Positions 567 to 48,825 of a stretch of 64,000 nucleotides of DNA are shown in pieces. The position numbers were made by a program, and so were the translations under genes. Under the pieces are notes generated by a model. It did not search any database and was not told where the DNA came from. It saw nothing but the letters and a program-made list of their open reading frames with translations. Positions within the stretch are counted from its first letter, which is position 1, and every line of letters starts with the position of its first letter. This stretch comes from a virus (Duplodnaviria > Caudoviricetes): positions 1,859 to 65,858 of the IMG/VR virus record IMGVR_UViG_3300002220_000769. One strand, given 5' to 3'.

Positions 567-615
567 GTGAAGAACACAGAGTCTAAAGAACACTGTGTTT
601 TACGCGGCAGTTGCT
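567..615 (-). mobile_element. 49-bp miniature IS200/IS605 derivative
   Basis: on minus strand TTTAT|AGCAACTGCCGCGTAAAACACAGTGTTCTTTAGACTCTGTGTTCTTCAC. Confidence 0.8.
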
Positions 616-624
616 ATAAAATCT

Positions 625-660
625 GGCCTGTTAGCTCAATTGGTTAGAGCAACCGACTCA
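625..660 (+). tRNA. 5' half of the same permuted tRNA
   Basis: GGCCTGT TA GCTC AATTGGTTA GAGC A ACCGA CTCA; acceptor pairs with 553-559, ACCGA pairs with TCGGT 526-530. Confidence 0.8.
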
Positions 661-698
661 CACCGAGGGTCGAGTTAAATCGTCCTTCAAACCAACAA

Positions 699-796
699 AG
701 GAAGTTTACAGCAAACTAAAGAATGGTTCGAGTCCATCACGGAAAGATGCAAATCTATCCTTGACTATTCCCATAAGGTAATGGGAAAACTTCCTG
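699..796 (+). ncRNA. long-loop hairpin RNA motif copy 1 (skipping-rope-like)
   Basis: AGGAAGTTTACAGCAA...AAACTTCCTG terminal stem. Confidence 0.5.
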
Positions 797-811
797 AACA
801 GTTTCAAATCA

Positions 812-900
812 GGTGCATTGGTCGAGTGGCTGAAGACAAGAGTTTGCTAAACTCTCCTACGCTTTAAGGCGTAGCGTAGGTTCGAATCCTACATGCACCG
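812..900 (+). tRNA. tRNA-Ser(GCT)
   Basis: GGTGCAT/ATGCACC, AGAGT-TTGCTAA-ACTCT, long variable arm, G discriminator. Confidence 0.93.
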
Positions 901-962
901 CAGAAAATAGTAGTTGACATACAAGTGTTCTGAATGTAGAATACTTGAAAGTTTCAAAAAGT

Positions 963-1047
963 GCCTTCGTGGTGGAACAGGTATACACAGCGCACTCAAA
1001 ATGCGCCGCCGAAAGGCATGTCGGTTCGAATCCGACCGAAGGCACCA
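963..1047 (+). tRNA. tRNA-Leu(CAA)
   Basis: GCCTTCG/CGAAGGC, GCGCA-CTCAAAA-TGCGC, variable arm, ACCA. Confidence 0.95.
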
Positions 1048-1311
1048 ACAGTTCATAAGATTTGTGCAACATACTATCAATTGAGAGAGCCTTACCTAAA
1101 ATCCTAAGTTAGCACCGACAGTAAAGATCTAGTGATCTAGGGTGCATAAGCCAAGAAATCTATGGTAGATTCAGGTGAGGTGTGCAAGTTTGAATCTTGC
1201 TGTTGCACAAAAACATTGGTGAATACGCAGGCTGATGCGCTAGTTCCAGTTGTCGCTTGTCCACACGGAATGTCGGAGATCAGCACCGACCACCATTTTA
1301 ATACAAGATTT

Positions 1312-1468
1312 AGGAAAAGTTCAGCAAAAAATTTACTCATGACTTAGCCGATTCTCAAGTGAAGGTGTTGCTTGGGTGACTCAGATAATTCTGATATTGT
1401 TGATAGAACATCAACTGGATGTGATAAGACCATGCGTCACATTGAGAAAGAGTGGAACCCTTTTCCTG
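1312..1468 (+). ncRNA. long-loop hairpin RNA motif copy 2
   Basis: AGGAAAAGTTCAGCAA...CTTTTCCTG. Confidence 0.45.
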
Positions 1469-1559
1469 TTACATCTTGTCTGTTTTAGTTGTTGACAAGT
1501 AGTTAGAGTGGTTGTAAGATAGAAGCATAAACAGTAAAGATAGTTCTTTAACAAGTTCC

Positions 1560-1636
1560 CTGCTCGTAGCTCAATCGGATAGAGCACCGGCCTTCTAAGC
1601 CGGTGGTTGCAGGTTCAACTCCTGCCGAGCAGGCCA
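1560..1636 (+). tRNA. tRNA-Arg(TCT)
   Basis: CTGCTCG/CGAGCAG, CCGGC-CTTCTAA-GCCGG, GCCA end. Confidence 0.95.
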
Positions 1637-1691
1637 TATTCGGAAATAGTTTGAGACTAAAACTATTTCAAAAAATGAAAATAAAAGTTTT

Positions 1692-1771
1692 AGGATAGGT
1701 TCAGCAAACACATTATACAATGGCGTCAGTATTCAGTCTGACATTAATCAAAACTGGAAAAAACTATCCTG
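1692..1771 (+). ncRNA. long-loop hairpin RNA motif copy 3
   Basis: AGGATAGGTTCAGCAA...AACTATCCTG. Confidence 0.5.
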
Positions 1772-1789
1772 TTAAAGTTGTTTTTAATC

Positions 1790-1873
1790 TCGGCGTCGGT
1801 TAGTGGTCTATACCACCTGTTTTGGGAACAGGAGCAAAAAATTGCGTCATGGGGTAGAATCCTACCGTTTTGA
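1790..1873 (+). pseudogene. degenerate tRNA-Pro(TGG)-like sequence
   Basis: intact CCTGT-TTTGGGA-ACAGG anticodon arm; T arm and acceptor stem poorly paired. Confidence 0.5.
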
Positions 1874-1956
1874 CTAAGTGTATAAACAGTTTAACGTATT
1901 TATTAGCAAATATACTCTTATATTAACGTTTTTTACAAAAAAAGATAAATAAAAGT

Positions 1957-2523
1957 ATGAAACTAAGTGAATACGCAAAATTAAATGGGGTTCATTATCA
2001 AACTGCCTACAGATGGTTTGTTGCTGGCCTGATTCCTTCGGCAAGACAACTCCCAAATGGAACTATACTCGTAGATAAGGTCGACGTCAATAAGCCAACC
2101 GAAAAAGTTGTAACGTATGCTCGTGTTAGTAACGCATCTAGAAGAAAAGAACTTGAATACCAAGTTGCCCGTCTTCATGACTTTTGTGAGGCAAAGGGAC
2201 TAACAGTATCTGCATCGTATAAAGAAATTGCTTCTGGAATGAATGATTCCAGAAAACAACTATGGCAAATGATAGATTCTTGCCCAACGATAATTGTTAT
2301 CGAAAACAAAGACAGATTGACTAGATTTGGGTTTAAATACCTTTCTCACTTGCTTGACAAGCAAGGGACAAAAATAATAGTAATAAATGAATCCGAAACT
2401 GACGAACAAGATTTGATTCGAGATTTGGTGTCTATTATAACATCATTTTGCTGTAGATTGTATGGACTCCGCAGAGGACATAAGAAATCAAAACAGATTA
2501 CACAAGAAATAACTTCAGAGTAA
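1957..2523 (+). CDS. tnpA: IS607 transposase (HTH plus serine recombinase)
   Basis: N-terminal MerR-like HTH; YARVS catalytic motif; EIASG; IENKDRLTRFGF. Confidence 0.95.
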   Translation: MKLSEYAKLNGVHYQTAYRWFVAGLIPSARQLPNGTILVDKVDVNKPTEKVVTYARVSNASRRKELEYQVARLHDFCEAKGLTVSASYKEIASGMNDSRKQLWQMIDSCPTIIVIENKDRLTRFGFKYLSHLLDKQGTKIIVINESETDEQDLIRDLVSIITSFCCRLYGLRRGHKKSKQITQEITSE

Positions 2524-2524
2524 A

Positions 2525-3754
2525 ATGATAAAATCGACTGCTTTTTCTACTAAATTTGCAAATCAAGACAAACGAACTCGTCTTGATGAATTTTTGCATG
2601 ATTATAGAAATGCAGTTGAGTTTTATGTAGATTATTTGTGGGCAAATTTAAACAAGTCATTTGAAATACCAAAGTTTATTTCTACAAAAACCATATTCCC
2701 ATCAAATTCCGATTTATCACAGCGGGCATTAAAATGCGCTTCCACTCAGGCATGCGGAATGGTTCGTGCTGCAACAGAAAAAAGACGCAGGCAGTTGTTT
2801 GTTCTAAAAAAACTAATGCGAGAAGGCGCAAATGTCCGCCAATTGCAACGGAAAATCGATACTACCCCACTGGTCAAACCTTCTGTTCCAAAGCAACTGC
2901 CTGCTGAATTGAATTCTGTGTGTGCTGTTTTTCATACCTCGCAAAATTCCTTTGATAACTGGTTCGTTTTGAGTTCTCTTGGCAAAAAATATGGGAAAAT
3001 TTTGATTCCCGTCAAACAAACCAGGCATTCACGTAAATTGGAAAAATCTGGAACAGAAATGACTTCATTTTTGGTTTCAAGAGAGAGTATAAATTGCCGG
3101 TATGAAATTAAAAAACCAGAAAAACGGATTACTGGACGGGTGTTAGGTGCAGATCAGGGTGTGACTACTTGCCTTTCTTTAAGCGATAGTCAAGTTACAA
3201 GCAAGTGTCCTCATGGACACGACTTGCATAGTATTAGCAGCAAACTTTCCAGATGCAAAAAAGGAAGCAAGGGTTTCCGTAGGGCACAAGCGCATCGAAC
3301 CAATTACATTAACTGGTCTATAAACCAGTTAAATTTAACAGACGTAAAAGAAGTAAAATTAGAAAAGTTGTTTCAAATGCGGAAAGGACAACGAACGAGT
3401 AGATTTCTTTCTCATTTTAGTTATAAACAAATCCACGACAAATTGTCAGACAGATGCGAGTCGTCTGGCATAATCTTCACTGAACAAAGTAATGTTTACA
3501 GAAGTCAGAGATGTTCGGATTGTGGATTTGTTCACAAAGCCAACCGGAAAGGCAAAGAGTTTATTTGCCGTGAATGCGGTGTAGTGCATGACGCGGATAT
3601 AAATTCGGCCCTGAACCATGAAGCAGAACTAGTGGAGTTGCCGTTTGGTTTTCGTCATTTAAAGTTGAATAAAACTGGATTCTTTTGGAATACTCAGGGC
3701 GTATTCGATTTAAATGGACAGGAGATTACAGTCCCTGTCGGTTCAAAGCAATAG
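2525..3754 (+). CDS. tnpB: TnpB RNA-guided endonuclease
   Basis: RuvC motifs LGADQG, VKLEKL, DADINSALN; zinc finger CSDCG..CRECG. Confidence 0.9.
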   Translation: MIKSTAFSTKFANQDKRTRLDEFLHDYRNAVEFYVDYLWANLNKSFEIPKFISTKTIFPSNSDLSQRALKCASTQACGMVRAATEKRRRQLFVLKKLMREGANVRQLQRKIDTTPLVKPSVPKQLPAELNSVCAVFHTSQNSFDNWFVLSSLGKKYGKILIPVKQTRHSRKLEKSGTEMTSFLVSRESINCRYEIKKPEKRITGRVLGADQGVTTCLSLSDSQVTSKCPHGHDLHSISSKLSRCKKGSKGFRRAQAHRTNYINWSINQLNLTDVKEVKLEKLFQMRKGQRTSRFLSHFSYKQIHDKLSDRCESSGIIFTEQSNVYRSQRCSDCGFVHKANRKGKEFICRECGVVHDADINSALNHEAELVELPFGFRHLKLNKTGFFWNTQGVFDLNGQEITVPVGSKQ

Positions 3755-3798
3755 TATATTTGTATATATTATTCGTAACTGTCCAGCACCAAAATTAA

Positions 3799-3873
3799 TC
3801 CGAGATGGGCGCGGGTGTGCCAACAGAGACTGTCAATCTGTTCATCAGGAAGGTTCGATCCCTTCGCTCGGAG
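3799..3873 (+). pseudogene. atypical tRNA-Asp(GTC)-like gene
   Basis: TCCGAG/CTCGGA acceptor, GAAGG-TTCGATC-CCTTC T arm, ACAGA(GA)CTGTCAATCTGT arm with 2 extra nt; no CCA. Confidence 0.55.
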
Positions 3874-3946
3874 TCTATTAACCGTGAATGGTTAGTGAGT
3901 TTTAAAATGTTTTCCGCAAATTTTCTTCACAAAAAAAGTAAGGATT

Positions 3947-4198
3947 GTGCTTCACAGCATTATCACTTTGTGCCCCATCATCCTTAACGGACTGATCATG
4001 TTTAGCACAATTGTTTCCTACGCTGCCTTTGTATTGACTTCTATCTTTATGCTGTTTTTCTTCTATGATGCTACTCGTGATTTGACAGAACAAGAAAAAC
4101 TTCTGATTAAACTTGGTGCAAAGATTACTATTCGTTGGAGTAACTTTTTTGTTGCCCTTGCAATTTGGTTTTCTAGTGGTGTATACTTGTGGGGATGA
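3947..4198 (+). CDS. small membrane protein
   Basis: two hydrophobic segments; true start may be downstream. Confidence 0.55.
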   Translation: MLHSIITLCPIILNGLIMFSTIVSYAAFVLTSIFMLFFFYDATRDLTEQEKLLIKLGAKITIRWSNFFVALAIWFSSGVYLWG

Positions 4199-4201
4199 TG
4201 G

Positions 4202-5119
4202 TTAACAACCAATAGTTTGTTGTAAGTTGCTTTCAGTGTTCAGAACAGAATCTATCCACTCTTTTTTAGAATGGTTGAAATACTCCCTATAACTAATCCT
4301 ATGTATAGGAATTCCGTGTGATTCAAGTATGGTGTTGTCTCTGACAGCATCTGTTTTAACTGTTTGCATGTGCTGTTTCCCATCAAGTTCTATCCCGATG
4401 TGTTGAAGAGGGAAATAGAAATCAATATAGAAGTTCTTGACATATTTGCCATTTTCATCCGTTATTCGGACAGTATAGTTGAATTCGTATTTCACTGACG
4501 GATAGTTTTGCTCTATGTACGTGATGAAAGATTGTTCAAGATACGAAGGATTTTTTCTATTTCTGTATTGATTGCCGAGATGTCTTCCTTCTGAAAATGC
4601 TTTTTTGATAGAATCCGATATTTTCTTTCCAACTTGTTTCCTTGCTTCTTCTATACAGACTTCATCGTCACATACGGTTCTTTTTTTCCAAGTGGTATTA
4701 GGGATTGTGGTTCCGCATATTTTACAGGCACAGGTTTTTATAGTTCTCTTTCCAGAATCTATTTCTTCTTGGATGATTTGATTCACTCTGTCACGAATTT
4801 TCTGTTTTGTTTCTTCCGAATGAGGCTTTTTGTTGGCATTGGAGCGATAAGTTTTCTGACAAGTTTCTGAACAAGTTTTTTCTTGTGGGTAGACAAGTTC
4901 TTTTCCACAAGTTATACATCCAGAAGAATTTTTTGCTTTCCAATTTTCATATTTTTTGGTTTCTGTAACTTTTTTTCTGGATTCTTCTGCTTTCTCGGAT
5001 TGCAAGAACTTTACTGCCGAAGATGACTTTTTGTGATAATCTTCGTTGTGGTGGTTTCTGTGTGATGCTAAAGATCTCTTGGTAGAAAATTCTCGTTGAC
5101 AAATATCGCAAGTGTACAT
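4202..5119 (-). CDS. free-standing homing-type endonuclease (C2H2 finger, NUMOD3-like, C-terminal DUF559/Vsr-like nuclease)
   Basis: CDICQREFSTKRSLASHRNHH; KPHSEETKQKI; SYLEQ..YIDFYF..IGIELDGKQH; ATAAATA upstream on minus strand (5167-5173). Confidence 0.8.
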   Translation of the reverse strand: MYTCDICQREFSTKRSLASHRNHHNEDYHKKSSSAVKFLQSEKAEESRKKVTETKKYENWKAKNSSGCITCGKELVYPQEKTCSETCQKTYRSNANKKPHSEETKQKIRDRVNQIIQEEIDSGKRTIKTCACKICGTTIPNTTWKKRTVCDDEVCIEEARKQVGKKISDSIKKAFSEGRHLGNQYRNRKNPSYLEQSFITYIEQNYPSVKYEFNYTVRITDENGKYVKNFYIDFYFPLQHIGIELDGKQHMQTVKTDAVRDNTILESHGIPIHRISYREYFNHSKKEWIDSVLNTESNLQQTIGC

Positions 5120-5283
5120 TATAATTCCTTTGTAGTTGAGGTTCAAATTTGATGTTCCGCTCCAAGTATTTATCATTTGCTCAGTTATGCAAAAAGTTTT
5201 AAGAAGTGCTTGCATTGTTGGATGTCTTGAGGTATAATGTAGTCACAGTGAAGTTGATGGAGTAGATAAATAAAAGTTTTAAC

Positions 5284-5369
5284 GCGGGTGTGGTCCATTG
5301 GTAGGGCACTGGATTTCCAATCCAGCAGGCGAAAGCCGCATGAGGGTTCAATTCCCTTCACCCGCTCCA
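5284..5369 (+). tRNA. tRNA-Gly(TCC) with an abnormal long variable arm
   Basis: GCGGGTG/CACCCGC, CTGGA-TTTCCAA-TCCAG, 16-nt variable region with GGC-GAAA-GCC hairpin, T73-CCA. Confidence 0.88.
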
Positions 5370-5569
5370 TGTTTCACTATGGTTCGCAGAGCCAAGAATC
5401 TGCTAAGAGAGGGGATAGTTAAGACGCATACCTTAACCCCGCCAAAATACTCTCACTACGATCTGAAGAGGCTAAGATCGACCTTTTCAATTCAGAGTCG
5501 TCATTGTTCAAAAGTCGGTGGCGATTTCATATAGTTTTTGCTGTTGGGGTTGGATTGAAATATATCATC

Positions 5570-5657
5570 GGGAGAGTGGCCGAGTGGCTTAAGGCAGCGG
5601 TCTTGAAAACCGCCGGGGAGAAATCCTCCGTGAGTTCGAATCTCACCTCTCCCGCCA
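5570..5657 (+). tRNA. tRNA-Ser(TGA)
   Basis: GGGAGAG/CTCTCCC, GCGGT-CTTGAAA-ACCGC, variable arm, GCCA. Confidence 0.95.
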
Positions 5658-5698
5658 GCAATCTATGAATAAAGGGCACCACCGAAAAATGCACTAGT

Positions 5699-5800
5699 AG
5701 CGACATAGTTCAACATTTAGAACACTAGTAGAGAAAGCCAGGAAACTGCGTAGCAAGTATCGAATGAGGTTTGTAGGTGAGAATCCTACTGTCGCCACCA
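5699..5800 (+). ncRNA. tRNA-like RNA with expanded anticodon domain
   Basis: AGCGACA/TGTCGCC acceptor, GTTC/GAAC D stem, GTAGG-TGAGAAT-CCTAC T arm, ACCA end; no canonical anticodon arm. Confidence 0.6.
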
Positions 5801-5805
5801 ATAAC

Positions 5806-5889
5806 GCGGGTATGGGGAAATTGGTAAACCCAGCGGACTTAAAATCCGCCGCTCATGGCTTGTCGGTTCGAGTCCGACTACCCGCACCA
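5806..5889 (+). tRNA. tRNA-Leu(TAA)
   Basis: GCGGGTA/TACCCGC, GCGGA-CTTAAAA-TCCGC, ACCA. Confidence 0.95.
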
Positions 5890-15882: not shown

Positions 15883-15930
15883 GTAACTGCCGCGTAAAAC
15901 ACAGTGTTTTTTAGGCGATGCGACCTTCAC
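15883..15930 (+). mobile_element. 48-bp miniature IS200/IS605 derivative
   Basis: TTTAT|GTAACTGCCGCGTAAAACACAGTG...CTTCAC. Confidence 0.75.
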
Positions 15931-20026: not shown

Positions 20027-20440
20027 ATGAAAATAAACGAAATCATTCTTTCTGAAATAGAACTGGTTGGAGGCATTGAATTTCCAAAAGATCAAGCGCA
20101 ACAACGACTATCAATTTCTTCGCCGTATGGAAAATTCAACGATGAATTGTATGTATTTTTTCTCGCCAGTGGAGACATAAGAATAATTACATTGGCAGAC
20201 AGCGACGAACAAGTAGCAGCATTGGCAACATTCATTAGCAAAAACAACGATTCTATTTGGCAAGCAAAAAATATCGCAACATATCATCCTCACAAAAATC
20301 AAAAATTGGCAGCGAATCTATATAAGTATGTCAAATCCCAATTCCGAAAATCATTGCAAAGTGATTATGAACAGACTGTGGCGGGCGCAAAACTATGGAC
20401 AAAAGACTTACCATCGGTTGGATTATTCCCAATGATTTAT
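20027..20440 (+). pseudogene. 5' part of a GNAT-like gene interrupted by the IS
   Basis: MKINEIILSE leader; AANLY..LQSDYEQTVAGAKLW; frame continues at 21755. Confidence 0.75.
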
Positions 20441-21754
20441 CTGACTGACGCGTAAAGCACAGTGTTCTTTAGACGCTGTGATATAAGCGGCATTCCAAAA
20501 AAATGTAGATAAATAACTACATGAAACATAAAGCATTTAAATTCCTTCTCTTACCAAATACCCAACAAGAACAGCAATTGATTCAACTTGCTGGTATTTC
20601 TCGTTGGATATGGAATTATATGCTACAAAAGAACAAAGAGCAATACGAAGCAGAAAAAAAGTTTGTTTTTAAGTTCGCAATGAACAACTTGCTTCCTGAA
20701 CTGAAAAAAGAACACCCTTGGTTAAGTCAAATGCCAAGCCAAGCATTACAACAAAAATGCTCTGATTTGGATGCAGCAATACAACGGGTTTACAAACAAG
20801 GATTTGGTTTTCCTAAATTTAAATCGAAGCACGTAGAGCACCACAACACTTTCCGTATCCCCAATCAAAGCAAGTGCATTCGCCCGACAAAAGACAGGGT
20901 TAAATTGCCAAAATTGGGTTGGGTTAAGTGGGTTAAACATAGAAATATAGAAGGGTTGTTGAAATCAGTAACTATTAAAAAAGAAAACAATCGGTGGTGG
21001 TGCGTGTGTCTTTGCGAAATTGAGGAAGTTTCCCCTTCTACTGCATTGATTGACTCCGATATTATCGGTTTGGATTTGGGTATAAAAGATTTTGCTGTTT
21101 GTAGTGATGGTGAAGTTATACCAAGCAACCATTTCTACAGAAAATCAGAACGTAAATTAAAAAGAACACAAAAACAACTGAGTAAAAAGCAAAAAGGAAG
21201 TAACAACTACAACAAAAAGAAGAAAGAATTAAATGCGCAGCACTACCGAGTAAAATGCCAGCGACAAAACTTCACTCATCAAGCAAGTAGTTCGATAGCC
21301 AAGAACTACAAACTGGTTTGTATTGAAGACTTAAATGTCGCTGGTATGAAGCGAAATAGGTCACTTGCAAAATCTATAAGTGATCAAGGATGGCGTCAAT
21401 TCGTTAACCAATTAGAATACAAGATGGATTGGGTGGTTAAAATTGGTCGTTTTGCTCCGAGTTCAAAGACGTGTAGTTGCTGTGGAAATATACAAGATAT
21501 GCCTCTTGAAGAAAGAACGTATTCATGTAGTAATTGCGGGTTAGAAATGAATCGTGATTTAAACGCAGCAATGAATGTTCGCAATTGGGGCATAGAAAAA
21601 ATAATAGGGCAAGGAAGTGTCCAAATATACGCCTGTGGAGATACCTCTGACGGGGATTCTGAGCAATCAGAGTCTAGTTATGTATCGTTGAATCAGGAAA
21701 ATATCCCCTCACTGGAGGGGAAGCGCAGTGTTCTTTAGACGCTGCGTTCTTCAC
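20441..21754 (+). mobile_element. TnpB-only IS200/IS605 (IS1341-type) element, 1314 bp
   Basis: TTTAT target 5' of left end; CACAG..CTGTG left hairpin; GAAG-CGCAG..CTGCG-TTCTTCAC right end; no target duplication. Confidence 0.9.
20521..21738 (+). CDS. tnpB: TnpB RNA-guided endonuclease
   Basis: HTH N-terminus; GLDLGIK, IEDLNV, CSCCG/CSNCG, RDLNAAMN. Confidence 0.95.
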   Translation: MKHKAFKFLLLPNTQQEQQLIQLAGISRWIWNYMLQKNKEQYEAEKKFVFKFAMNNLLPELKKEHPWLSQMPSQALQQKCSDLDAAIQRVYKQGFGFPKFKSKHVEHHNTFRIPNQSKCIRPTKDRVKLPKLGWVKWVKHRNIEGLLKSVTIKKENNRWWCVCLCEIEEVSPSTALIDSDIIGLDLGIKDFAVCSDGEVIPSNHFYRKSERKLKRTQKQLSKKQKGSNNYNKKKKELNAQHYRVKCQRQNFTHQASSSIAKNYKLVCIEDLNVAGMKRNRSLAKSISDQGWRQFVNQLEYKMDWVVKIGRFAPSSKTCSCCGNIQDMPLEERTYSCSNCGLEMNRDLNAAMNVRNWGIEKIIGQGSVQIYACGDTSDGDSEQSESSYVSLNQENIPSLEGKRSVL

Positions 21755-21956: not shown

Positions 21957-22004
21957 CTGACTGACGCGTAAAACACAGTGTTCTTTAGACGCTGCGTTCT
22001 TCAC
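21957..22004 (+). mobile_element. 48-bp miniature IS200/IS605 derivative
   Basis: TTTAT|CTGACTGACGCGTAAAACACAGTGTTCTTTAGACGCTGCGTTCTTCAC. Confidence 0.88.
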
Positions 22005-23541: not shown

Positions 23542-23588
23542 GTGAAGAACGCAGCGTCTAAAGAACACTGTGTTTTACTCGGCAATGG
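23542..23588 (-). mobile_element. 47-bp miniature IS200/IS605 derivative
   Basis: GTGAAGAACGCAGCGTCTAAAGAACACTGTGTTTTACTCGGCAATGG|ATAAT. Confidence 0.8.
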
Positions 23589-24222: not shown

Positions 24223-24270
24223 ACAATTGCCGCGTAAAGCACAGTGTTCTTTTGGCGATATTATCCTCAC
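24223..24270 (+). mobile_element. 48-bp diverged miniature IS derivative
   Basis: TTTAT|ACAATTGCCGCGTAAAGCACAGTGTTC...CTCAC. Confidence 0.7.
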
Positions 24271-33743: not shown

Positions 33744-33744
33744 A

Positions 33745-35091: not shown

Positions 35092-35106
35092 TCGGCGCAA
35101 GGTTAG

Positions 35107-35247: not shown

Positions 35248-35383
35248 AACCCCTGTAAACCAGTTTAAACCCCCATAGTTCGGAACTATTAGAAAGTGAG
35301 GGAACGATAAAAACAAAATGGTTGACGTGGTAAGTGGGGAGTTTATAATTGCCACACTTTCAACGAAACGAGGAATCCGGATC

Positions 35384-35929: not shown

Positions 35930-35967
35930 TTGAAAGTAAATGGGGGAGAATTCTCCCCCATAAAACC

Positions 35968-36186: not shown

Positions 36187-36263
36187 GAAAAAACAGTGTT
36201 GACACGGCAGGGGATTTGTATGAAAATCCTCCTACCGTAACAAACCAACAAAGGAGCAAGATC

Positions 36264-36455
36264 ATGATTCACATCGATGTCAAAGGCGGTTCTTGGATGC
36301 GCTTATTTCGCACGCGGTGCGATGACATGGGAAATTGGATGCGCATTGACCTCAATGAGAAATGGGAAATGACGCCCTTTGGTCGGGTGTATCGGTATTG
36401 CATCGTCGACGATCACGGCAATGCCGTGTCACGCTCGTGCGAAAGCATGTGCTAA
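36264..36455 (+). CDS. hypothetical early protein
   Basis: promoter module shared with 36520; GGAG RBS. Confidence 0.7.
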   Translation: MIHIDVKGGSWMRLFRTRCDDMGNWMRIDLNEKWEMTPFGRVYRYCIVDDHGNAVSRSCESMC

Positions 36456-36519
36456 ATGGTTGACACATGGGGGGATTTGTATGAAAATCCTCCTACCGTA
36501 ACCCAACTGGAGCAAGATC

Positions 36520-37293: not shown

Positions 37294-37559
37294 CACACGG
37301 TTACAAAAAAGAATCCCCGAGCAATCGGGGATTTTTTCGTCTACCTTTCCCTGTGTAATCGCCGCAGGACCGCTCAGAATGATCCAGGATCGGTTTTTGG
37401 ACTATTGCCTACCCTACCCTACCTGTCTACAAACAAACCCGCTCTAATCGCCCCTAAACCGTTCCTGTCGCAAATGCACTATTTTGCTTAGAAAGGTTGA
37501 CAACCAAATCCACACGATGCACAATCCTGACCTGTACATTTTTCATAGGGGGTTCAATC

Positions 37560-37769
37560 ATGACGATCACGATCACCATCATCGATGACATTGACGCCGA
37601 CCTTTTCACGGTCAATCTCTCGGGCGATTACTGGCGCGTTATTGGCGAGCGTATTATTAATCAACCATGGAAAGTCAACTCCGACACCATGGAAGTCATT
37701 GAGTCTCGGCGTGTCATGCGACATCGCGACTTCATAAAGGTAATTAATGAGATTGCATGGCAGGATTAA
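37560..37769 (+). CDS. hypothetical early protein
   Basis: own promoter and terminator. Confidence 0.65.
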   Translation: MTITITIIDDIDADLFTVNLSGDYWRVIGERIINQPWKVNSDTMEVIESRRVMRHRDFIKVINEIAWQD

Positions 37770-38380
37770 TTGCAATTTATTCCACTATAATCCCCGAGCA
37801 ATCGGGGATTTTTTTTGCATGTTGATATGACAATAGCATAATGATGCTGGCATTGTTCCCCTATGCTATCCGCATGAATAGATTGTGTTTATAGCGATGA
37901 CTATAAGCAATGTTTATGATAAGCACAGTTTATATGGTCGCGATCTTCACCATGTTGCACCGTGTCCAATCATTTTTTCTTATGACGAAGGGTGTTGACA
38001 CTACTGGCAAGGTGTGCATCATTGGTATGGTATAGATAACTTTAATGGTGCACGGTGTTGACACTGTAGGCAAGGTGTGCATCATGACGAGCAGTATAAG
38101 CATATGCTTATGATCATAACAGGCATGCACAGTGTGAGCACCGTGTCAAATAATATTTTTAAATAGTATGGCCACGGTTGGGCATAAAATACTTTTATTA
38201 TTAAAAATTTTTATAGGGGGGTCGCGTGTACTATAAAATATTTTTATAATCAGAAACTGTGCTATAATTTTTTCTTATAATGTTACATTCTTTTCTACTC
38301 TCTTGTAAATTTCTGGTACCATACAAAAACAATGGGGGTTTACCAACAAAAGGTTCATTAACGGTGTCACACACCCTTTC

Positions 38381-38532
38381 AAAACTTTTCCATACGGTTG
38401 TAAATAATTTTTCGATTTTTTGGCGCAAAAATTTTTTTCTACCCTACATAGAAAATTCTTATAATAGAAAACTTTTCCATACGGTTGTAAATAATTTTTC
38501 GATTTTTTCCGGACCAAATTTTTTTCTACCCT
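38381..38532 (+). repeat. two 65-bp direct repeats (87-bp period)
   Basis: AAAACTTTTCCATACGGTTGTAAATAATTTTTCGATTTTTT..AAATTTTTTTCTACCCT at 38381 and 38468. Confidence 0.9.
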
Positions 38533-43235: not shown

Positions 43236-45076
43236 AAATAAAAGAAATAATACTCAACTTATTTGAAGCACGGATGAGTCCTGCTGTGTTTGCCAAATTT
43301 GTCAGATCACCATCAGCAAATTCCACTTTCATTGGGGTTGAATTTGAACTATACTTTAAAGGCATACTACAAAACAACCAAACAAAACACTGGGACGACC
43401 GAGTGGTAGATCAGTTGGCAGTCACATTCACAAAAGAGACTGGAATACCTGCCAAACGAGGCGCAAGCAACGAACAGATCGGGGTAGGAAGTACACACTG
43501 GATATTCACCGAAGACGGCAGTGTTACCAGAAAGGGAAATCCAGATGACATGGGCATGGAAATAAAAACTCCAGCAGTGCCACTACCGCAATTCATGAAG
43601 CAATTTAATACATTTATCCAGTGGTTGCGGCACCACAACGCTTACACAAATGAAAGAACTGGTCTGCATTTGAACATGTCTGTTCAAGGAAAAGACATTG
43701 ACTACTTGAAATTGGTGTTGTTTTCTGGCTCAGACAAAGTGAGTGCCGACTTTGAAAGAACAGCGAGCGAGTTTGCAGAATCAAATTTAAAAAAATTAGA
43801 CTTGGAATATGTAAGCAAGCCGTCCATTTATAACAAAATAAAACAGAATCTACTTCAAGCAGCAGCAGCAGAAATCGAAAACAAAAGCCAAGACAAATAC
43901 TTCCAAGTAAATACACACTCAGATTACGTCGAGTTTCGTGCACCTGGTAATGATTGGTTAGGAAGATTTTACCCACTTGTCGAAAATACGATTTACCGCT
44001 ATGTGTACGCCTTATCAATTGCAACCGACCCCGAATCAGAAAAACGAGAATATGCCAAGAAATTGATGAAATTATTTGGAGGAGCAGAAGAATATTCAAA
44101 TGAATTGATGGTTGCGATTAGTGACAAACCAATACTGATTACCAAAATAAAAAACCCAAGCGAAAAAGTCCAACTTGCTGCTGTTCAACAAAATGGACAT
44201 GCCATTAAATATATTGAAAACCCAACGGAGCAAGTCCAAATTGCTGCTGTCACACATTATGGATATGCAATTGAATATATTGAAAACCCAAGCGAACAAG
44301 TCCAACTTGCTGCTGTTCAACAAAATGGACATGCCATTGACTATATTGAAAACCCAACGGAGCAAGTCCAACTTGCTGCTATTAACCAAAATGGTTATGC
44401 CATTAAATATATTGAAAACCCAACGGAGCAAGTCCAACTTGCTGCTGTCACGCAAAATGGCGAGGTAATTCAGCACATAAAAACACCAAGTGAACAAGTC
44501 CAACTTGCTGCTGTTCAAAAATATGCAAATGCAGTCAAATATATTGAAAACCCAAGTGAACAAGTCCAACTTGCTGCTGTTCAAAAATATGGTTATGCAA
44601 TTAAATATATTAAAAACCCAAGCGAACAAGTCCAACTTGCTGCTGTCGAGCAAGATGGCGATGCAATTGAATATATTGAAACACCAAGTGAACAAGTCCA
44701 ACTTGCTGCTGTTCAAAAATATGCAAATGCAGTCAAATATATTGAAAACCCAAGTGAACAAGTCCAACTTGCCGCTGTTCAACAAAATGGACATGCCATT
44801 AGATATATTAAAAACCCAAGCGAACAAGTCCAACTTGCTGCTGTTCAACAAAATGTAAATGCAATCCTACACATTGAAACCCCATCCGAGAAAGTCCAAC
44901 TTGCTGCTGTCACGCAAAATGGCGAGGTAATTCAGCACATAAAAACACCAAGTGAACAAGTCCAACTTGCCGCTGTTAAGCAAAATCCAGGAGTATATAT
45001 ATTGATGAACCGCAGAAAAATGGATATAGCCTCATCAGTGCATGAATACATGAGAAATATTGAGAGTCAGAGATGA
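43232..45076 (+). CDS. putative amidoligase with 13 C-terminal 22-aa repeats
   Basis: IGVEFE; TEDGSV; MEIKTP; RTGLHLNMS; VEFRAPG; PSEQVQLAAVxxxGxAIxYIEN x13. Confidence 0.8.
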   Translation: MKIKEIILNLFEARMSPAVFAKFVRSPSANSTFIGVEFELYFKGILQNNQTKHWDDRVVDQLAVTFTKETGIPAKRGASNEQIGVGSTHWIFTEDGSVTRKGNPDDMGMEIKTPAVPLPQFMKQFNTFIQWLRHHNAYTNERTGLHLNMSVQGKDIDYLKLVLFSGSDKVSADFERTASEFAESNLKKLDLEYVSKPSIYNKIKQNLLQAAAAEIENKSQDKYFQVNTHSDYVEFRAPGNDWLGRFYPLVENTIYRYVYALSIATDPESEKREYAKKLMKLFGGAEEYSNELMVAISDKPILITKIKNPSEKVQLAAVQQNGHAIKYIENPTEQVQIAAVTHYGYAIEYIENPSEQVQLAAVQQNGHAIDYIENPTEQVQLAAINQNGYAIKYIENPTEQVQLAAVTQNGEVIQHIKTPSEQVQLAAVQKYANAVKYIENPSEQVQLAAVQKYGYAIKYIKNPSEQVQLAAVEQDGDAIEYIETPSEQVQLAAVQKYANAVKYIENPSEQVQLAAVQQNGHAIRYIKNPSEQVQLAAVQQNVNAILHIETPSEKVQLAAVTQNGEVIQHIKTPSEQVQLAAVKQNPGVYILMNRRKMDIASSVHEYMRNIESQR

Positions 45077-45669
45077 AAATAACAGAAATAACTAGACCTC
45101 GCTCAATTGCAGATGCAGATCGTATTCTGAAGCAACATGGATACAAAAGACTTGGAGTTGGAAGTTTTGGCGTAGCATATCAAAAACGACCAGATCAAGT
45201 GTTGAAGCTTTTTTCCAGCGCAGACACTGCGTATCTAAAGTTTATACACGTTTCAAAAACTGCAAATAATCCACATTTCCCAAAAATATTTGGCAATCCT
45301 ATCAGGATAAACGAAACTTATTATGGAATCAAAACAGAAATGCTGGAGACAATAGATTTGACAGTTGCATACAATGTTTCGTCTTCCATCCGAAAATATA
45401 TCTTCAACATGCAGCGTGGTAAACAACCAACTCCAGAAACAGATCTATACAAAGAAATTGCCCCGTATGTTAAAAACTATGAGGAATTTGACCGTGCGTG
45501 CAAAATATTGGTAGAGTTGATCAACTCCGACAAAGATATCACACTTGATGTTGCTACAAGAAATATCATGTTTAGAAACGGAACTGTTGTATTCTCTGAT
45601 CCAGTGGCGTCACAAACTGCAATGTCGGCAGATGAACTTCACTTGCCAGAATCAAAACAAGAGCAGTGA
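45073..45669 (+). CDS. protein kinase-like (paralog of 40498)
   Basis: LGVGSFGVAY; DVATRNIMFR; FSDP. Confidence 0.8.
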   Translation: MKITEITRPRSIADADRILKQHGYKRLGVGSFGVAYQKRPDQVLKLFSSADTAYLKFIHVSKTANNPHFPKIFGNPIRINETYYGIKTEMLETIDLTVAYNVSSSIRKYIFNMQRGKQPTPETDLYKEIAPYVKNYEEFDRACKILVELINSDKDITLDVATRNIMFRNGTVVFSDPVASQTAMSADELHLPESKQEQ

Positions 45670-45714
45670 AGAACGCAGCGTCTAAAGAACACTGTGTTTT
45701 ACGCGGCAGTTGAT
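45666..45714 (-). mobile_element. 49-bp miniature IS200/IS605 derivative
   Basis: GTGAAGAACGCAGCGTCTAAAGAACACTGTGTTTTACGCGGCAGTTGAT|ATAAA. Confidence 0.88.
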
Positions 45715-45746
45715 ATAAATACAATCAACATTCCGGAAAATTAAAA

Positions 45747-47093
45747 GTGAAACTAACAGAAGTTGCAGCGGAGTATTCTAATCCGTATTACCCAGAAGAA
45801 GACATTGGTTTATTAACTCTTGGCGAATTCTTATATTCGAGGAATCCACTGGGAAAATCACACACATCTGATGTTTATGATACGACCATTGAGTCACTGA
45901 ACCGATCTTGGCCTACTATGACAAAAGATATATCTTATGTATCAAGGTCTTATGACAAATTGTATCTCACTCAATATGAGAACGGAAGCACAATTATAAG
46001 CACTGAATCTTCTGGAAGAAGCGGATCAAAACTGGATGAACACACAGTTCTTGCTGTTATTATAGATGACACAGCATACTATACAGTCCATTTTTCTAAG
46101 TCATTGCTTCCATTACATTTCACCGATTACAATGGAAATAAACTTGACATTGTTCCGACGAAGTTCGTAAAAGTGAAATATATCACAGAGTATCTTGACC
46201 GAGTGAAATTGGATTCATCAAAAAACATTAAAAACTATCCTTACATAATTCGAAGAATGATGATTGCAGATGAGGCACTTACGATAAGAACTGACTCAAA
46301 AGATTATCCAAAAGATTCTGGACATGCAATTGTTATAACGAATGAACGAAAACAGGTTGTTGCAACAGCAACGGATGAATGGGGAGCAACGTTGCTCCGA
46401 GTAGCAAAAGAATATCGTGGAAAAAATTTGGGAAGAATACTTGGTGACATTTGGTATTCAAAGAATCCTGGTTATACCTCTGGTGGATTTTCCCCACAAG
46501 GGAAACATAATGCAAAAAAGATTTGGTCTGAGCGAGTTAGGACAATGTTGCAAAATGGATGGTATTCTGACTTGGTTAGGAGCAAAAGAATTTCTCCAGA
46601 AAAAGTAAAAACAATTTTGTCTTCACTGTTGCCTAGAGAAAGAACTCCAGTTGCACAACCAAAATCTGCACAAGAACCACTGTTGTATACAGATGGAAGT
46701 TCAGTGTTTGTTTTATATGACAAAAAGTTCTATGAAGATCAAGATGACAAATACATTTATGCTTTTGGTTTAATTCGTGACTTTGGTGGAAAAGTATTCG
46801 CTTATACCTTGGATTACGATTCTGCATACCGCAGATTGGCGACGTATATCTTAATTGAAACTGTTCAACTGCACAGTGATAAATTATATGTTGCAGATAA
46901 ACCAAGTGATCATATAGATTTGTCTGGAATATCAGATGTTGTTGTGGATAACGAGGGGTATGCGACTCTGGAATCACCAAAAGTCAATGTGATGGCACAT
47001 GCTTCTCAAGAAAAAAGATACAGAATTCCTCGTGATAAGCATGGAGAAATTCTACAGGTATTGCTTGAACAAGCACATTCGAAATGGATGTGA
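45747..47093 (+). CDS. hypothetical protein with a GNAT-like segment
   Basis: LRVAKEYRGKNLGRIL; GGFSPQG; leader MKLTEV. Confidence 0.6.
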   Translation: MKLTEVAAEYSNPYYPEEDIGLLTLGEFLYSRNPLGKSHTSDVYDTTIESLNRSWPTMTKDISYVSRSYDKLYLTQYENGSTIISTESSGRSGSKLDEHTVLAVIIDDTAYYTVHFSKSLLPLHFTDYNGNKLDIVPTKFVKVKYITEYLDRVKLDSSKNIKNYPYIIRRMMIADEALTIRTDSKDYPKDSGHAIVITNERKQVVATATDEWGATLLRVAKEYRGKNLGRILGDIWYSKNPGYTSGGFSPQGKHNAKKIWSERVRTMLQNGWYSDLVRSKRISPEKVKTILSSLLPRERTPVAQPKSAQEPLLYTDGSSVFVLYDKKFYEDQDDKYIYAFGLIRDFGGKVFAYTLDYDSAYRRLATYILIETVQLHSDKLYVADKPSDHIDLSGISDVVVDNEGYATLESPKVNVMAHASQEKRYRIPRDKHGEILQVLLEQAHSKWM

Positions 47094-47153
47094 GTCATTA
47101 TGAAGAACGCATGCGTTCTTCATAAATACATTGATTATGACGAATATGAAAAA

Positions 47154-48485
47154 ATGAAATTATATGAAATGTTTGGCCATGTAATAACAGAAGATTACAA
47201 AACTTCGGCTGCAAAGCAGTTGCAATCAAACCAAGAACTACAGCAAGCGTGTGACTTGATCAATGCTGGCGGACAGTTGAGTTGGACACTGACTCCAGCA
47301 AAATTGAATCAAAAACTTGGAAGCGAGGGCGCAATATTTGGTCTGTTTGACGACGATGAAATCATTGGCACAATAGGTTTAAAACATTCCAACATACAAT
47401 CACACAGTGTAGCCGAAGTTGGTTACTTGTATGTAATTCCTGAGCACAGAAACTTTCAAAATTTAATGAAATTGTATAATATAGCGTCAGAATATGCACC
47501 ATCATACGATTTTGTTTATGCAACTACAATCAAGACAAACCAGACCATCAATACTATATTGCAAAGAAATTCAAGAGTTAAGTTCGCATTTTCTGCAAGG
47601 TCTCCATTCAGTAGCAACATTCTAAACTACTGGATTTCAAAGAACTCGAGATTGGATTCAGATGAGGCAATTGAAATACTTAAAAGCGAATTTGGTGGAA
47701 GTAGGTTGACGGAATCATCTGTGAATGAATTTAAAATAGTTCTATCTCGCGTCGAATTGGCACCAAAAAATTTTCAAACATCAATTCAACGATTAATAAG
47801 TTCCTCCAAATTTATAGAAACTGGAGATAATGCTGGACCAAATCAAGTATTAGTTATATTTGGTAGGCAAAGTAGTCTGCCAACAAAAAAGAATACTATA
47901 TACGTCGGCAACAATTATTATGACAAAGAACAACAGTATAATATTCTCAAGAATGTCGTTCCCCTGCCATTCACAACTACCAATCCAAACGAACTCAAAG
48001 GAGAATTTGTTGCCAAACAAAAAACTGGACACAAGCAAAAGGGGCAGTTGATTAATCAACTGCCAGATAATCCAGAAGATTATATTTTTCAGAAAAAAAT
48101 AGAGTTAAAATCAGAATACAGAGTGGTAGTTTTCTACATGAATGGCAAGTATCATGTGTCTGGAGTGTACAAAAAGACCGGGCCAAACCTCTCGTTTATT
48201 AGCATAACCTCTGGTCAAATACATGATAAATGCATAGATATAGCAATAGCTGCCTGTGAAAATCTTGGGTATGGAACAAGTGGGGTTGATTTGGCAATAA
48301 CTACATCCGAACTTGGCGAAGGTGTTGGCGGCATAGCATCATCACTTGGAAAACTTGCAGGAAAATTTCAAGGAAAATCTATAAATGGCCAAGTCGTTTT
48401 TTTGGAAGCAAATACACTTCCAAGCATGGCAAATCCAATGTTATTGAACGATTTTCTTAAACACATTAAATTAAAAATGGAATGA
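47154..48485 (+). CDS. GNAT plus ATP-grasp (RimK-like) fusion
   Basis: AEVGYLYVIPEHR; FVAK..G; YIFQKKI..EYRV; GVDL; FLEANTLP; leader MKLYEM..ITED. Confidence 0.7.
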   Translation: MKLYEMFGHVITEDYKTSAAKQLQSNQELQQACDLINAGGQLSWTLTPAKLNQKLGSEGAIFGLFDDDEIIGTIGLKHSNIQSHSVAEVGYLYVIPEHRNFQNLMKLYNIASEYAPSYDFVYATTIKTNQTINTILQRNSRVKFAFSARSPFSSNILNYWISKNSRLDSDEAIEILKSEFGGSRLTESSVNEFKIVLSRVELAPKNFQTSIQRLISSSKFIETGDNAGPNQVLVIFGRQSSLPTKKNTIYVGNNYYDKEQQYNILKNVVPLPFTTTNPNELKGEFVAKQKTGHKQKGQLINQLPDNPEDYIFQKKIELKSEYRVVVFYMNGKYHVSGVYKKTGPNLSFISITSGQIHDKCIDIAIAACENLGYGTSGVDLAITTSELGEGVGGIASSLGKLAGKFQGKSINGQVVFLEANTLPSMANPMLLNDFLKHIKLKME

Positions 48486-48490
48486 TTAAA

Positions 48491-48775
48491 ATGAGACTAA
48501 AAGACATAGCAGAAGTTAAGACAAATTTTCCAGATGCAGATTTTTGGATTCAGAGGAAAGGATCAAAGGAAAACGTTGGAAAACCAACTAAAACATTTTC
48601 ACCAGAAAACATTGGTATCAAAGTTGTGAAAACAGATGTAGTTGACCCAAACTATCTAAAGTACGTTTTTGAATACCTATTCACATCCGGTGCATTTAAA
48701 CCCCTTGCAAAAGGCACACTGAATCTTCAGCATCTGCCGTTAGATGCAATCCGAAATGCCAATATTGGCAACTAA
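48491..48775 (+). CDS. stand-alone type I restriction HsdS TRD-like domain
   Basis: RLKDIAEV..DPNYLKYVF..F..LAKGT..HL pattern. Confidence 0.55.
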   Translation: MRLKDIAEVKTNFPDADFWIQRKGSKENVGKPTKTFSPENIGIKVVKTDVVDPNYLKYVFEYLFTSGAFKPLAKGTLNLQHLPLDAIRNANIGN

Positions 48776-48777
48776 AA

Positions 48778-48825
48778 GTGAAGAACGCAGCGTCTAAATG
48801 ACACTGTGTTTTACGCGTCAGTCAG
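48778..48825 (-). mobile_element. 48-bp miniature IS200/IS605 derivative
   Basis: GTGAAGAACGCAGCGTCTAAATGACACTGTGTTTTACGCGTCAGTCAG|ATAAA; terminator follows. Confidence 0.88.

What the first reader, a model, noticed from the sequence alone, without database searches (positions are those of the whole stretch)
567..48825. Family of seven 47-49 bp single-hairpin IS derivatives with their TnpB parent in the same window
SEEN: copies at 567-615(-), 15883-15930, 21957-22004, 23542-23588(-), 24223-24270, 45666-45714(-) and 48778-48825(-). All start after TTTAT (ATTAT once) and end in TCAC, exactly like the 1314-bp element at 20441-21754. The parent's two end hairpins share 19 identical bp (CAGTGTTCTTTAGACGCTG). 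The best-preserved minis are left-end 5' part plus right-end 3' part joined in that shared core (CACAG...CTGCG). KNOWN: IS200/IS605 ends are cut by a HUH TnpA guided by a tetranucleotide 5' of each hairpin (IS608: AAAG-TTAC, GAAT-TCAA); here GAAG-TCAC fits the parent right end; PATEs are known non-autonomous derivatives. INFERENCE: recombination between the hairpins deletes tnpB and leaves a scar immune to TnpB cutting. The minis lack the GAAG guide, so they may be immobile scars of at least 8 invasions. Alternatively they are the smallest mobile, REP-like unit of this family.
Basis: partly seen in the sequence, partly recalled or inferred. Interest (0 to 1): 0.8.

Follow-up and report, generated by a model that had tools for sequence, protein, structure and literature searches.

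The report
One-hairpin mini-transposon remnants in jumbo phage
A large bacteriophage carries one intact 'jumping gene' encoding the RNA-guided nuclease TnpB, plus eight 48-base leftovers that fuse that element's left and right ends through their shared hairpin. This form is much smaller than the usual gene-less derivatives of this transposon family, and whether it can still move is not settled.

Summary
The window is 64 kb of a 65.9-kb jumbo-phage contig (about 18% of the genome). It holds one tnpB-only IS200/IS605-type element (20441-21754) and seven 47-49 bp copies. An eighth copy lies 690 bp upstream of the window. Each copy follows TTTAT (ATTAT once) and ends in TCAC.

The two best copies match an in-silico fusion of the parent's left end, the 19-nt hairpin core and the right-end tail at 47 of 48 bases. 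The parent's ends are fixed to the base: it splits a 197-aa gene, and an uninterrupted allele that is 100% identical at protein level exists in another metagenome.

TnpB relatives at 42-55% identity keep GGAAG-hairpin-NNN-TTCAC at their right ends. This supports the GAAG/TCAC guide-to-cleavage-site reading. The minis lack that guide.

Origin by deletion between the two end hairpins is well supported. Whether each copy is an in-situ scar (my best guess, about 50%) or a REP-like unit moved in trans (about 30%) could not be decided.

This scan has noted gene-less IS200/IS605 minis in other phages, but those were two-ended and 200-350 bp long. I rate this a new variant of a known kind, of moderate interest.

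The parts
20441..21754 (+). Full-length tnpB-only IS200/IS605-type element (1314 bp). The left end starts right after TTTAT; the right end finishes in TCAC.
   Evidence: Sequence. In-silico excision restores a 197-aa ORF. An intact 197-aa allele, P0135, is 100% identical to both halves, and P0121 is 88%/83% identical.
20521..21738 (+). tnpB gene (405 aa). Its stop codon TAG lies in the loop of the right-end hairpin.
   Evidence: Pfam HTH_OrfB_IS605, OrfB_IS605 and Cas12f1-like_TNB. E 2.8e-60 to ISDra2 TnpB structures; the GLDLG, IEDLN and RDLNAA motifs are present.
20441..20495 (+). Left end. It comprises a 17-nt 5' arm (CTGACTGACGCGTAAAG), an inner hairpin CACAGTGT-TCTTTAG-ACGCTGTG, and a 3' arm that pairs imperfectly with the 5' arm.
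   Evidence: DNA fold -11.1 kcal/mol, z -3.2. The 3' arm resembles the reverse complement of the 5' arm.
21703..21754 (+). Right end. It comprises the CCCCTC..GAGGGG hairpin, GAAG (guide-like), the hairpin CGCAGTGT-TCTTTAG-ACGCTGCG, and the tail TTCTTCAC.
   Evidence: DNA fold -14.7 kcal/mol, z -4.1. GGAAG-hairpin-NNN-TTCAC is conserved in relatives L049, L051 and L052.
567..615 (-). Mini, subtype B, 49 nt, 41/48 to the chimera. Its 3' stem is CTGTG, which restores the A-T pair. It sits in the linker between the two halves of a permuted tRNA.
15883..15930 (+). Mini, subtype B, 48 nt, decayed (39/48), in a divergent intergenic region.
21957..22004 (+). Mini, subtype A, 48 nt, 47/48 to the parent chimera. 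It lies right after a bidirectional terminator and 1 nt from the stop codon of the convergent gene 22006-22893.
23542..23588 (-). Mini, subtype B, 47 nt, after ATTAT. The core and tail are intact (42/48).
24223..24270 (+). Mini, subtype B, 48 nt, the most decayed copy (35/48). It keeps AAAG 5' of the hairpin.
45666..45714 (-). Mini, subtype B, 49 nt (44/48). Its GTGA end supplies the TGA stop of gene 45073-45669. Removing it gives CAA TAA, so the protein is unchanged.
48778..48825 (-). Mini, subtype A, 48 nt (45/48, with two loop changes). It follows the terminator of gene 48851-49597 and lies 2 nt from the stop of gene 48482-48775.
20027..20440 (+). N-terminal 138 codons of the gene interrupted by the parent element. 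The remaining 59 codons are at 21755-21934.

Best explanation
The window is part of a jumbo bacteriophage genome. It was colonised by a tnpB-only IS200/IS605-family element that inserts, without duplication, 3' of TTTAT.

One full-length copy (20441-21754) is a recent and still polymorphic insertion inside a 197-aa gene. The eight 47-49 bp copies are internal-deletion derivatives. The two end hairpins of the element are direct repeats sharing 19 identical bases. Recombination or polymerase template-switching between them removes the left end's 3' arm, tnpB, the guide-RNA scaffold and the right-end guide GAAG. What remains is the left 5' arm, one hybrid hairpin and the right tail ...TCAC.

The derivative has only the left-type tetranucleotide (AAAA or AAAG) 5' of its hairpin. 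By the IS608 rules a Y1 transposase should not be able to pair and cut its TCAC end. Most copies are therefore probably immobile remnants formed where a full-length copy had landed, either long after insertion or at the moment the single-stranded insert was first replicated. They persist because they sit at harmless positions and cannot be excised.

Shown: the anatomy, the chimeric structure, the exact ends, the empty allele of the parent site, the target word, the neutral positions, and conservation of GGAAG...TTCAC in relatives.

Inferred: the deletion mechanism, the immobility, and one invasion per copy.
For: - Chimeric structure: two copies are 47/48 identical to the parent's left arm + core + right tail. 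The 19-nt core is shared exactly by both ends.
- Ends fixed to the base: excision restores a 197-aa ORF. P0135, from another metagenome, is 100% identical across the junction at residues 138|139. The interrupted form P0133 also exists elsewhere.
- The site was empty before insertion. The uninterrupted allele shows no 16-codon insert, so the IS did not land in a pre-existing mini.
- TnpB looks active. Ten variants at 94-100% identity occur on different contigs, so a pool of full-length parents exists.
- The geometry resembles IS608. Here the cleavage sites lie 17 nt 5' and 8 nt 3' of the hairpin foot. In IS608 they lie 19 and 10 nt away, with guides 5' of each hairpin, and removing the right guide abolishes the synaptic complex (PMC3201880).
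- GGAAG-hairpin-NNN-TTCAC is conserved in relatives at 42-55% identity while the stems differ. The minis have TAAAA or TAAAG there instead.
- The copies range from 47/48 to 35/48 identity, as expected for remnants that accumulate over time.
- In relatives whose left and right hairpins are not long identical repeats, no minis were seen in the available fragments.
- All copies are at neutral sites. One exchanges TAA for TGA without changing the protein.
Against: - The contig holds eight minis and one full-length copy; counting two other phage contigs the ratio is about twelve to one. The scar reading needs many separate invasions of a 1.3-kb element, each followed by deletion. Some sites (a tRNA linker, a stop codon next to the following gene) are places where a 1.3-kb insert might be harmful.
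- Five copies have a different left arm (nnAAyTGCCGCG), for which no full-length parent was found.
- All three subtype-A minis have A where the parent has G, just 5' of the hairpin.
- Near-identical cores occur in two phage contigs that share no other nucleotide similarity and show no close full-length copy. This shows horizontal spread of the family.
- No Y1 transposase is present in the 66 kb, so mobilisation of even the full-length copy is unexplained.
- No presence/absence data exist for any mini site.
Confidence: 0.5

Rival explanations
1. The minis are a non-autonomous, REP-like mobile unit. One or a few deletion events created the one-hairpin element, and a Y1 (HUH) transposase encoded elsewhere in the phage or in its host then moved it as a unit to new TTTAT sites.
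For: - High copy ratio, and two identical copies 22 kb apart.
- The subtype-A minis share A17 against the parent's G17.
- Copies with identical cores occur in otherwise unrelated phage contigs that lack a close full-length copy.
- In G002 one copy has compensatory stem changes (CAGTGT/ACGCTG becomes CATCGT/ACGATG), and mini 567 restores the A-T pair. Both suggest selection on the hairpin.
- There is a precedent: TnpA-REP cuts on either side of a single REP hairpin using one 5' tetranucleotide (PMC8266576).
Against: - The two cleavage words differ (TTAT against TCAC) and only one guide-like tetranucleotide is present. By the IS608 pairing pattern it fits TTAT but not TCAC.
- Removing the right guide abolishes synapsis in IS608.
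- The hybrid hairpin is weak.
- No Y1 transposase is present in the contig.
- The compensatory changes could equally have arisen in full-length parents.
Confidence: 0.3
2. The 48-bp unit is a phage sequence kept for a function of its own (a terminator, promoter part, protein-binding site or RNA-processing signal), and its likeness to the IS ends is secondary.
For: - All copies are intergenic or at gene ends, several beside terminators or stop codons.
- The core is better kept than expected in some copies. Copies 23542 and 45666 differ by 3 bases, all in the first 12 nt.
Against: - Orientation relative to flanking genes is mixed.
- The consensus scans do not flag the copies as terminators, and there is only one chance-level promoter match.
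- Two copies are clearly decaying (35 and 39 of 48).
- The fixed TTTAT...TCAC boundaries equal those of a proven insertion.
- An empty allele of the parent site shows that the IS does not need a pre-existing copy.
- Placement next to terminators follows from the T-rich target word.
Confidence: 0.07
3. The minis are minimal stand-alone guide-RNA genes. The retained right-end hairpin plus the adjacent flank would act as a short guide for TnpB made by the full-length copy.
For: Known gene-less IS200/IS605 derivatives often encode guide RNAs used in trans (PMC10055086). The minis keep the last 29 nt of the right end, directly next to a flank.
Against: - Only about 29 nt of the scaffold remain, and the rest of the region upstream of the right end is deleted.
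- No TTTAT-flanked match to any of the nine 3' flanks was found in the contig or the related contigs; the only hit was one chance match with 4 mismatches.
- No promoter is associated with the copies.
Confidence: 0.05

Closest known systems
IS608 / ISDra2-type IS200/IS605 elements, tnpB-only (IS1341-like) subgroup
   Same: No inverted repeats and no target duplication. Insertion is 3' of a fixed short word. Both ends have subterminal hairpins, with cleavage sites 17 nt 5' and 8 nt 3' of the hairpins (IS608: 19 and 10). A tetranucleotide lies 5' of each hairpin that fits the cleavage word. TnpB is homologous to ISDra2 TnpB.
   Different: No Y1 transposase gene lies in the element or in the 66 kb available. 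The host is a jumbo phage. The two end hairpins share 19 identical bases, which makes the element prone to deleting its interior.
PATEs and PATE-like minimal IS200/IS605 elements (Haloquadratum; Geobacillus ISGst; Halanaerobium 271-nt example)
   Same: They are gene-less derivatives of IS200/IS605 elements that keep the end sequences and the target word.
   Different: Described PATE-like elements keep both ends with their two hairpins, are roughly 100-350 bp long, and often carry the guide-RNA scaffold. The copies here are 47-49 bp with one hybrid hairpin, no right-end guide and no scaffold.
REP sequences and their TnpA-REP (RAYT) nucleases
   Same: They are short single-hairpin repeats with a conserved tetranucleotide 5' of the hairpin, related to IS200/IS605 ends, intergenic and multi-copy.
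   Different: There is no GTAG motif, no tnpA-REP gene nearby, and no paired (BIME) arrangement. The copy number is modest. The two flanking cleavage words differ from each other. A clear full-length TnpB parent is present.
Degenerate remains of homing endonuclease genes in T4-like phages
   Same: The proposed life cycle is the same: a nuclease-bearing selfish element invades a phage locus, then degenerates, leaving an allele its own nuclease no longer recognises.
   Different: This is a transposon with an RNA-guided nuclease. The decay product is a defined recombination product rather than random erosion. Homing by this TnpB is inferred, not shown.

Membership tests
IS200/IS605 family (parent element 20441-21754) | No terminal inverted repeats and no target-site duplication; precise insertion 3' of a specific tetra- or pentanucleotide | tested here: met
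   Removing 20441-21754 restores a 197-aa ORF with no extra bases. The uninterrupted allele P0135 is 100% identical across the junction. TTTAT or ATTAT precedes the parent and all eight minis.
IS200/IS605 family (parent element 20441-21754) | Subterminal imperfect hairpins at both ends, with cleavage sites at a distance and guide tetranucleotides 5' of the hairpins | tested here: met
   Left end folds at -11.1 kcal/mol (z -3.2) and right end at -14.7 (z -4.1). Distances are 17 and 8 nt, against 19 and 10 in IS608. GGAAG...TTCAC is conserved in relatives. Actual cleavage was not tested.
IS200/IS605 family (parent element 20441-21754) | Y1 HUH transposase TnpA, in the element or available in trans | tested here: not met
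   A six-frame search of the 65.9-kb contig with PF01797 found nothing at E<=1. About 82% of the phage genome and the host are not available, so a copy acting in trans is not excluded.
IS200/IS605 family (parent element 20441-21754) | TnpB with HTH, RuvC-like and zinc-ribbon domains | tested here: met
   Pfam PF12323, PF01385 and PF07282 are all above cut-off. The alignment to TnpB structures shows the GLDLG, IEDLN and RDLNAA motifs.
PATE (palindrome-associated transposable element) | A short gene-less element that keeps both the left and right palindromic ends of its IS | tested here: not met
   Only one hairpin is present. It is a hybrid of the left 5' stem arm and the right 3' stem arm. The left end's 3' arm and the right-end guide are absent.
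PATE (palindrome-associated transposable element) | Mobilisable in trans by the family's transposase | not testable with these tools
REP / REPtron | Conserved GTAG 5' of the hairpin and an associated tnpA-REP gene, often in paired BIME arrangement | tested here: not met
   The tetranucleotide is AAAA or AAAG. There is no Y1 gene in the contig. The copies are solitary and 0.6-22 kb apart.
MITE (classical) | Terminal inverted repeats and target-site duplication | tested here: not met
   The ends (CTGACTG... and ...TTCTTCAC) are not inverted repeats. The flanks are TTTAT on one side and unrelated sequence on the other.

The most novel reading that the evidence does not exclude
The 48-bp one-hairpin unit is itself a transposable element, which would make it one of the smallest known. 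It would have been created from a TnpB insertion sequence by recombination between its end hairpins and be moved by a Y1 transposase that uses a single hairpin. This would be a living example of how REP-like repeats can be born from IS200/IS605 elements, and it would be spreading among jumbo phages.
Probability: 0.3. Interest if true: 0.8.

Novelty: new variant of a known kind. Interest (0 to 1): 0.5.

Why it matters
Gene-less derivatives of IS200/IS605 elements are known, but they keep both ends. Here the parent, its empty site and a graded series of 48-bp hybrids of left end and right end sit in one phage contig. This shows a simple route, recombination between two near-identical end hairpins, by which a TnpB element can collapse into a single-hairpin repeat.

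If the copies are scars, they record repeated invasions of a jumbo phage by an RNA-guided selfish element, and they mark alleles that the element's nuclease can no longer target. That would be a natural analogue of drive-resistant alleles.

If they move, they bear on the long-standing question of how REP-type repeats arose from IS200/IS605 ends. They would also define a minimal substrate for single-strand transposition.

Either way, the conserved GGAAG-hairpin-TTCAC right end and the TTTAT target give testable predictions for this TnpB clade: its target-adjacent motif, its guide start and its transposase recognition rules.

Tried and rejected
Megablast of 24 kb against GenBank phages gave no match. 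IMG/VR relatives found through flanking proteins were only 47% identical and rearranged, or absent.

2. Wider census of the family.
- The exact 19-nt core was found only in two other IMG/VR contigs.
- It gave one chance hit in 596 Gb of genomes and none in the metagenome collection.
- Degenerate patterns gave almost only chance hits.

3. A tnpB cargo landing in a pre-existing repeat. This is rejected for the parent site, because the uninterrupted allele has no 16-codon insert.

4. The distant tnpB at the end of contig G002 as a parent. Rejected: 38% identity and an unrelated left end.

5. Minis as terminators or promoters. They are not flagged by the consensus scans.

6. Mini flanks as TnpB guides. 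No TTTAT-flanked targets were found.

7. Uneven substitution along the minis as a sign of constraint. The counts, made by hand from the aligned sequences taking mini 45666 as reference, are about 0.17 against 0.11 differences per site for the first 12 nt against the rest. That is too small a difference to use.

8. The parent's AAAG (against AAAA in the minis) as a disabling guide mismatch. I weakened this idea because the 55%-identical relatives also carry AAAG at the same place.

9. Detecting an empty allele of mini 15883 through alternative protein starts. None of the four start variants tried for the adjacent ORF is in the collection.

10. Rfam found only the tRNAs.

Full report
**What the DNA is.** The window is bases 1859-65858 of a single 65,858-base virus record, which CheckV rates as 18% complete. 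That implies a genome of roughly 365 kb. Its family-B DNA polymerase is 42-44% identical to those of jumbo myoviruses (Atu_ph07, PBECO4 and relatives). It carries seven tRNA genes and a ClpB-like ATPase, and it has intrinsic terminators of the bacterial type. It is therefore a fragment of an uncultured jumbo bacteriophage. GenBank phages contain no close relative.

**The observation.**
- The 21-nt core with up to 3 mismatches occurs 8 times, against 0.00 expected.
- An eighth mini lies just upstream of the window (contig 1123-1170, minus strand). It is identical to 21957-22004.
- Every copy ends in TCAC. Seven of the eight minis, and the parent, follow TTTAT; the mini at 23542-23588 follows ATTAT. 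The background frequency of TTTAT is 0.0022 per position.
- The left and right ends of the 1314-bp element share exactly CAGTGTTCTTTAGACGCTG.
- The left stem is CACAG/CTGTG, the right stem is CGCAG/CTGCG, and the minis have CACAG/CTGCG.
- An in-silico chimera (parent bases 1-38 plus the last 10) matches the copies at 47, 47, 45, 44, 42, 41, 39 and 35 of 48 positions.

**The parent.**
- ORF 20521-21738 encodes a 405-aa TnpB with all three Pfam domains.
- It has a strong match to ISDra2 TnpB structures and the three RuvC motifs.
- Its stop codon lies in the loop of the right-end hairpin.
- Removing 20441-21754 fuses 138 and 59 codons into a 197-aa ORF that stops just before a terminator.
- A 197-aa protein from another metagenome (P0135) is 100% identical to both halves. 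Four further intact variants are 88-90% identical to the N-terminal half. The truncated 142-aa form (P0133) also occurs on a 143.6-kb contig.
- The insertion is therefore exact, free of duplication, recent and polymorphic. The site held no mini before the element arrived.
- TnpB variants of 94-96% identity occur on eight other contigs, plus one at 85%. Full-length copies are thus common in this phage population.

**Anatomy compared with the IS608 model.** In IS608 the transposase binds a hairpin at each end. It cuts 19 nt 5' of the left hairpin (after TTAC) and 10 nt 3' of the right hairpin (after TCAA). Each cleavage word is recognised by four bases 5' of the hairpin foot. Removing the right guide abolishes the synaptic complex (PMC3201880).

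Here the distances are 17 and 8 nt. GAAG precedes the right hairpin and AAAG the left one.

TnpB relatives of 42-55% identity in other jumbo-phage contigs have right ends of the form GGAAG-hairpin-NNN-TTCAC. Their stems are quite different and internally complementary. This conservation of the two short words around a changing hairpin is independent support for the guide-to-cleavage-site reading.

The left end is a longer imperfect hairpin whose outer arms (ACGCG...GCGGC) pair as well. The 55% relative has the same layout.

**What the minis keep and lack.** They keep the left 5' arm with its tetranucleotide (AAAA in seven, AAAG in one), the core, and the right tail CGTTCTTCAC. They lack the left 3' arm, tnpB, nearly all of the region that would encode the guide-RNA scaffold, and GGAAG.

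The hybrid stem has an A.C mismatch, and the copies fold no better than shuffled sequence.

Two left-arm subtypes exist:
- Subtype A (CTGACTGACGCG) is identical to the parent's arm and has three copies.
- Subtype B (nnAAyTGCCGCG) has five copies and no full-length parent in hand.

**Where they sit.** All copies are intergenic or at the very ends of genes, in both orientations. Mini 45666 exchanges the stop TAA for TGA and CAA for CAG, so the protein is unchanged. Minis 21957 and 48778 follow terminator T-runs that supply TTTAT. Mini 567 lies in the linker between the two halves of a permuted tRNA. None is flagged as a terminator, and promoter matches are at chance level.

**The family elsewhere.** The exact core occurs in only two other IMG/VR contigs: G001 (13 kb, one copy) and G002 (57 kb, three copies). 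These share no other nucleotide similarity with the window.
- One G002 copy is a subtype-B-like mini with the TTTAT...TCAC layout.
- Two G002 copies have GTGAAGAAC... as the 5' arm, giving a long palindrome with the right tail.
- One of those two shows compensatory stem changes.
- No close full-length copy lies in those fragments.
- Prokaryote genomes gave one chance hit, and the metagenome collection gave none with the exact core.

**Interpretation.** Origin of the unit by deletion between the two 19-bp direct repeats is very likely (about 0.9). The product is exactly what such an event yields, and the alternative of a cargo inserting into a repeat is excluded at the parent site.

How the copies came to be at eight sites is not resolved. 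In favour of in-situ remnants:
- The right guide is missing.
- Loss of that guide in IS608 abolishes synapsis.
- The copies span a range of ages.
- A pool of full-length copies exists.
- An unexcisable neutral scar would be expected to accumulate in a genome that cannot afford 1.3-kb passengers.

A variant of this reading has the polymerase switching template between the two synapsed hairpins when the single-stranded insert is first copied. That would avoid the need for the full-length element ever to be established at each site.

In favour of mobility:
- The copy ratio is high.
- Two copies are identical.
- The subtype-A minis share A17.
- The family spreads to unrelated phage contigs.
- There are hints of selection on the stem.
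- TnpA-REP sets a precedent by cutting on both sides of one hairpin (PMC8266576).

I put in-situ scars at about 0.5, trans-mobilised units at about 0.3, and other functions at about 0.1-0.15 together.

**Novelty.** PATE-like gene-less derivatives are described in the literature (PMC3119063, PMC7290912, PMC10055086). Earlier notes of this scan list several in phages, all two-ended and 200-350 bp long (not checked here). I found no description of a 48-bp hybrid of left and right ends with one hairpin. My literature search was limited to open-access full text.

**Limits.** The contigs that would give empty, full or mini alleles could therefore not be read.

Noticed in passing
window 521-660: The 3' half of a tRNA (about 521-560: anticodon-stem 3' strand, T-arm, acceptor 3' strand) lies upstream of its 5' half (about 625-660: acceptor, D-arm, anticodon stem). 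The linker between them is TGAGTA + mini 567-615 + ATAAAATCT. This is a permuted tRNA gene with the mini inside its linker.
   Followed up: partly
window 1957-3754: A second, different TnpB element of IS607 type: a serine recombinase (188 aa, Resolvase domain) directly followed by a 409-aa TnpB-like protein (Cas12f1-like TNB domain; PHROG 'transposase').
   Followed up: partly
L049:60-140 and 1760-1830; L051:7200-7290; L052:7110-7190: TnpB relatives (42-55% identity) in other jumbo-phage contigs share the right-end layout GGAAG-hairpin-NNN-TTCAC with quite different hairpin stems. In L049 the left and right hairpins are 19/21 identical with a compensatory G..C / C..G swap. No mini derivatives were seen in those records.
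   Followed up: partly
window 64-5889: A cluster of seven tRNA genes (Met, Ser x2, Leu x2, Arg, Gly). The tRNA-Gly(UCC) is 86 nt long, which is unusually long for a glycine tRNA.
   Followed up: no
window 24396-25899: A run of small ORFs built from a repeat of about 69 nt (23 aa). It gives many staggered self-like matches to a similar repeat region in contig G003.
   Followed up: no
window 28000-38500: A stretch with higher G+C (0.40-0.44) and many short ORFs on both strands, unlike the long same-strand genes elsewhere. Earlier notes of the scan describe cassette-like modules here.
   Followed up: no
L006/L008/L021/L030 (marine metagenome and virus contigs): A recurring sequence ...GAGGTTCTTTAGACGATGCGTCTTGTTATCCTCAC followed by an A-run. 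It shares the loop and the ...CCTCAC end with the decayed mini 24223. It may be a right end of a distantly related element or a coincidence.
   Followed up: no
window 21929-21958: A bidirectional terminator (AAAGCCAGCACGTGCTGGCTTT) whose T-run supplies the TTTAT target of mini 21957. The mini lies only 202 bp downstream of the parent's right end, on the same strand.
   Followed up: partly
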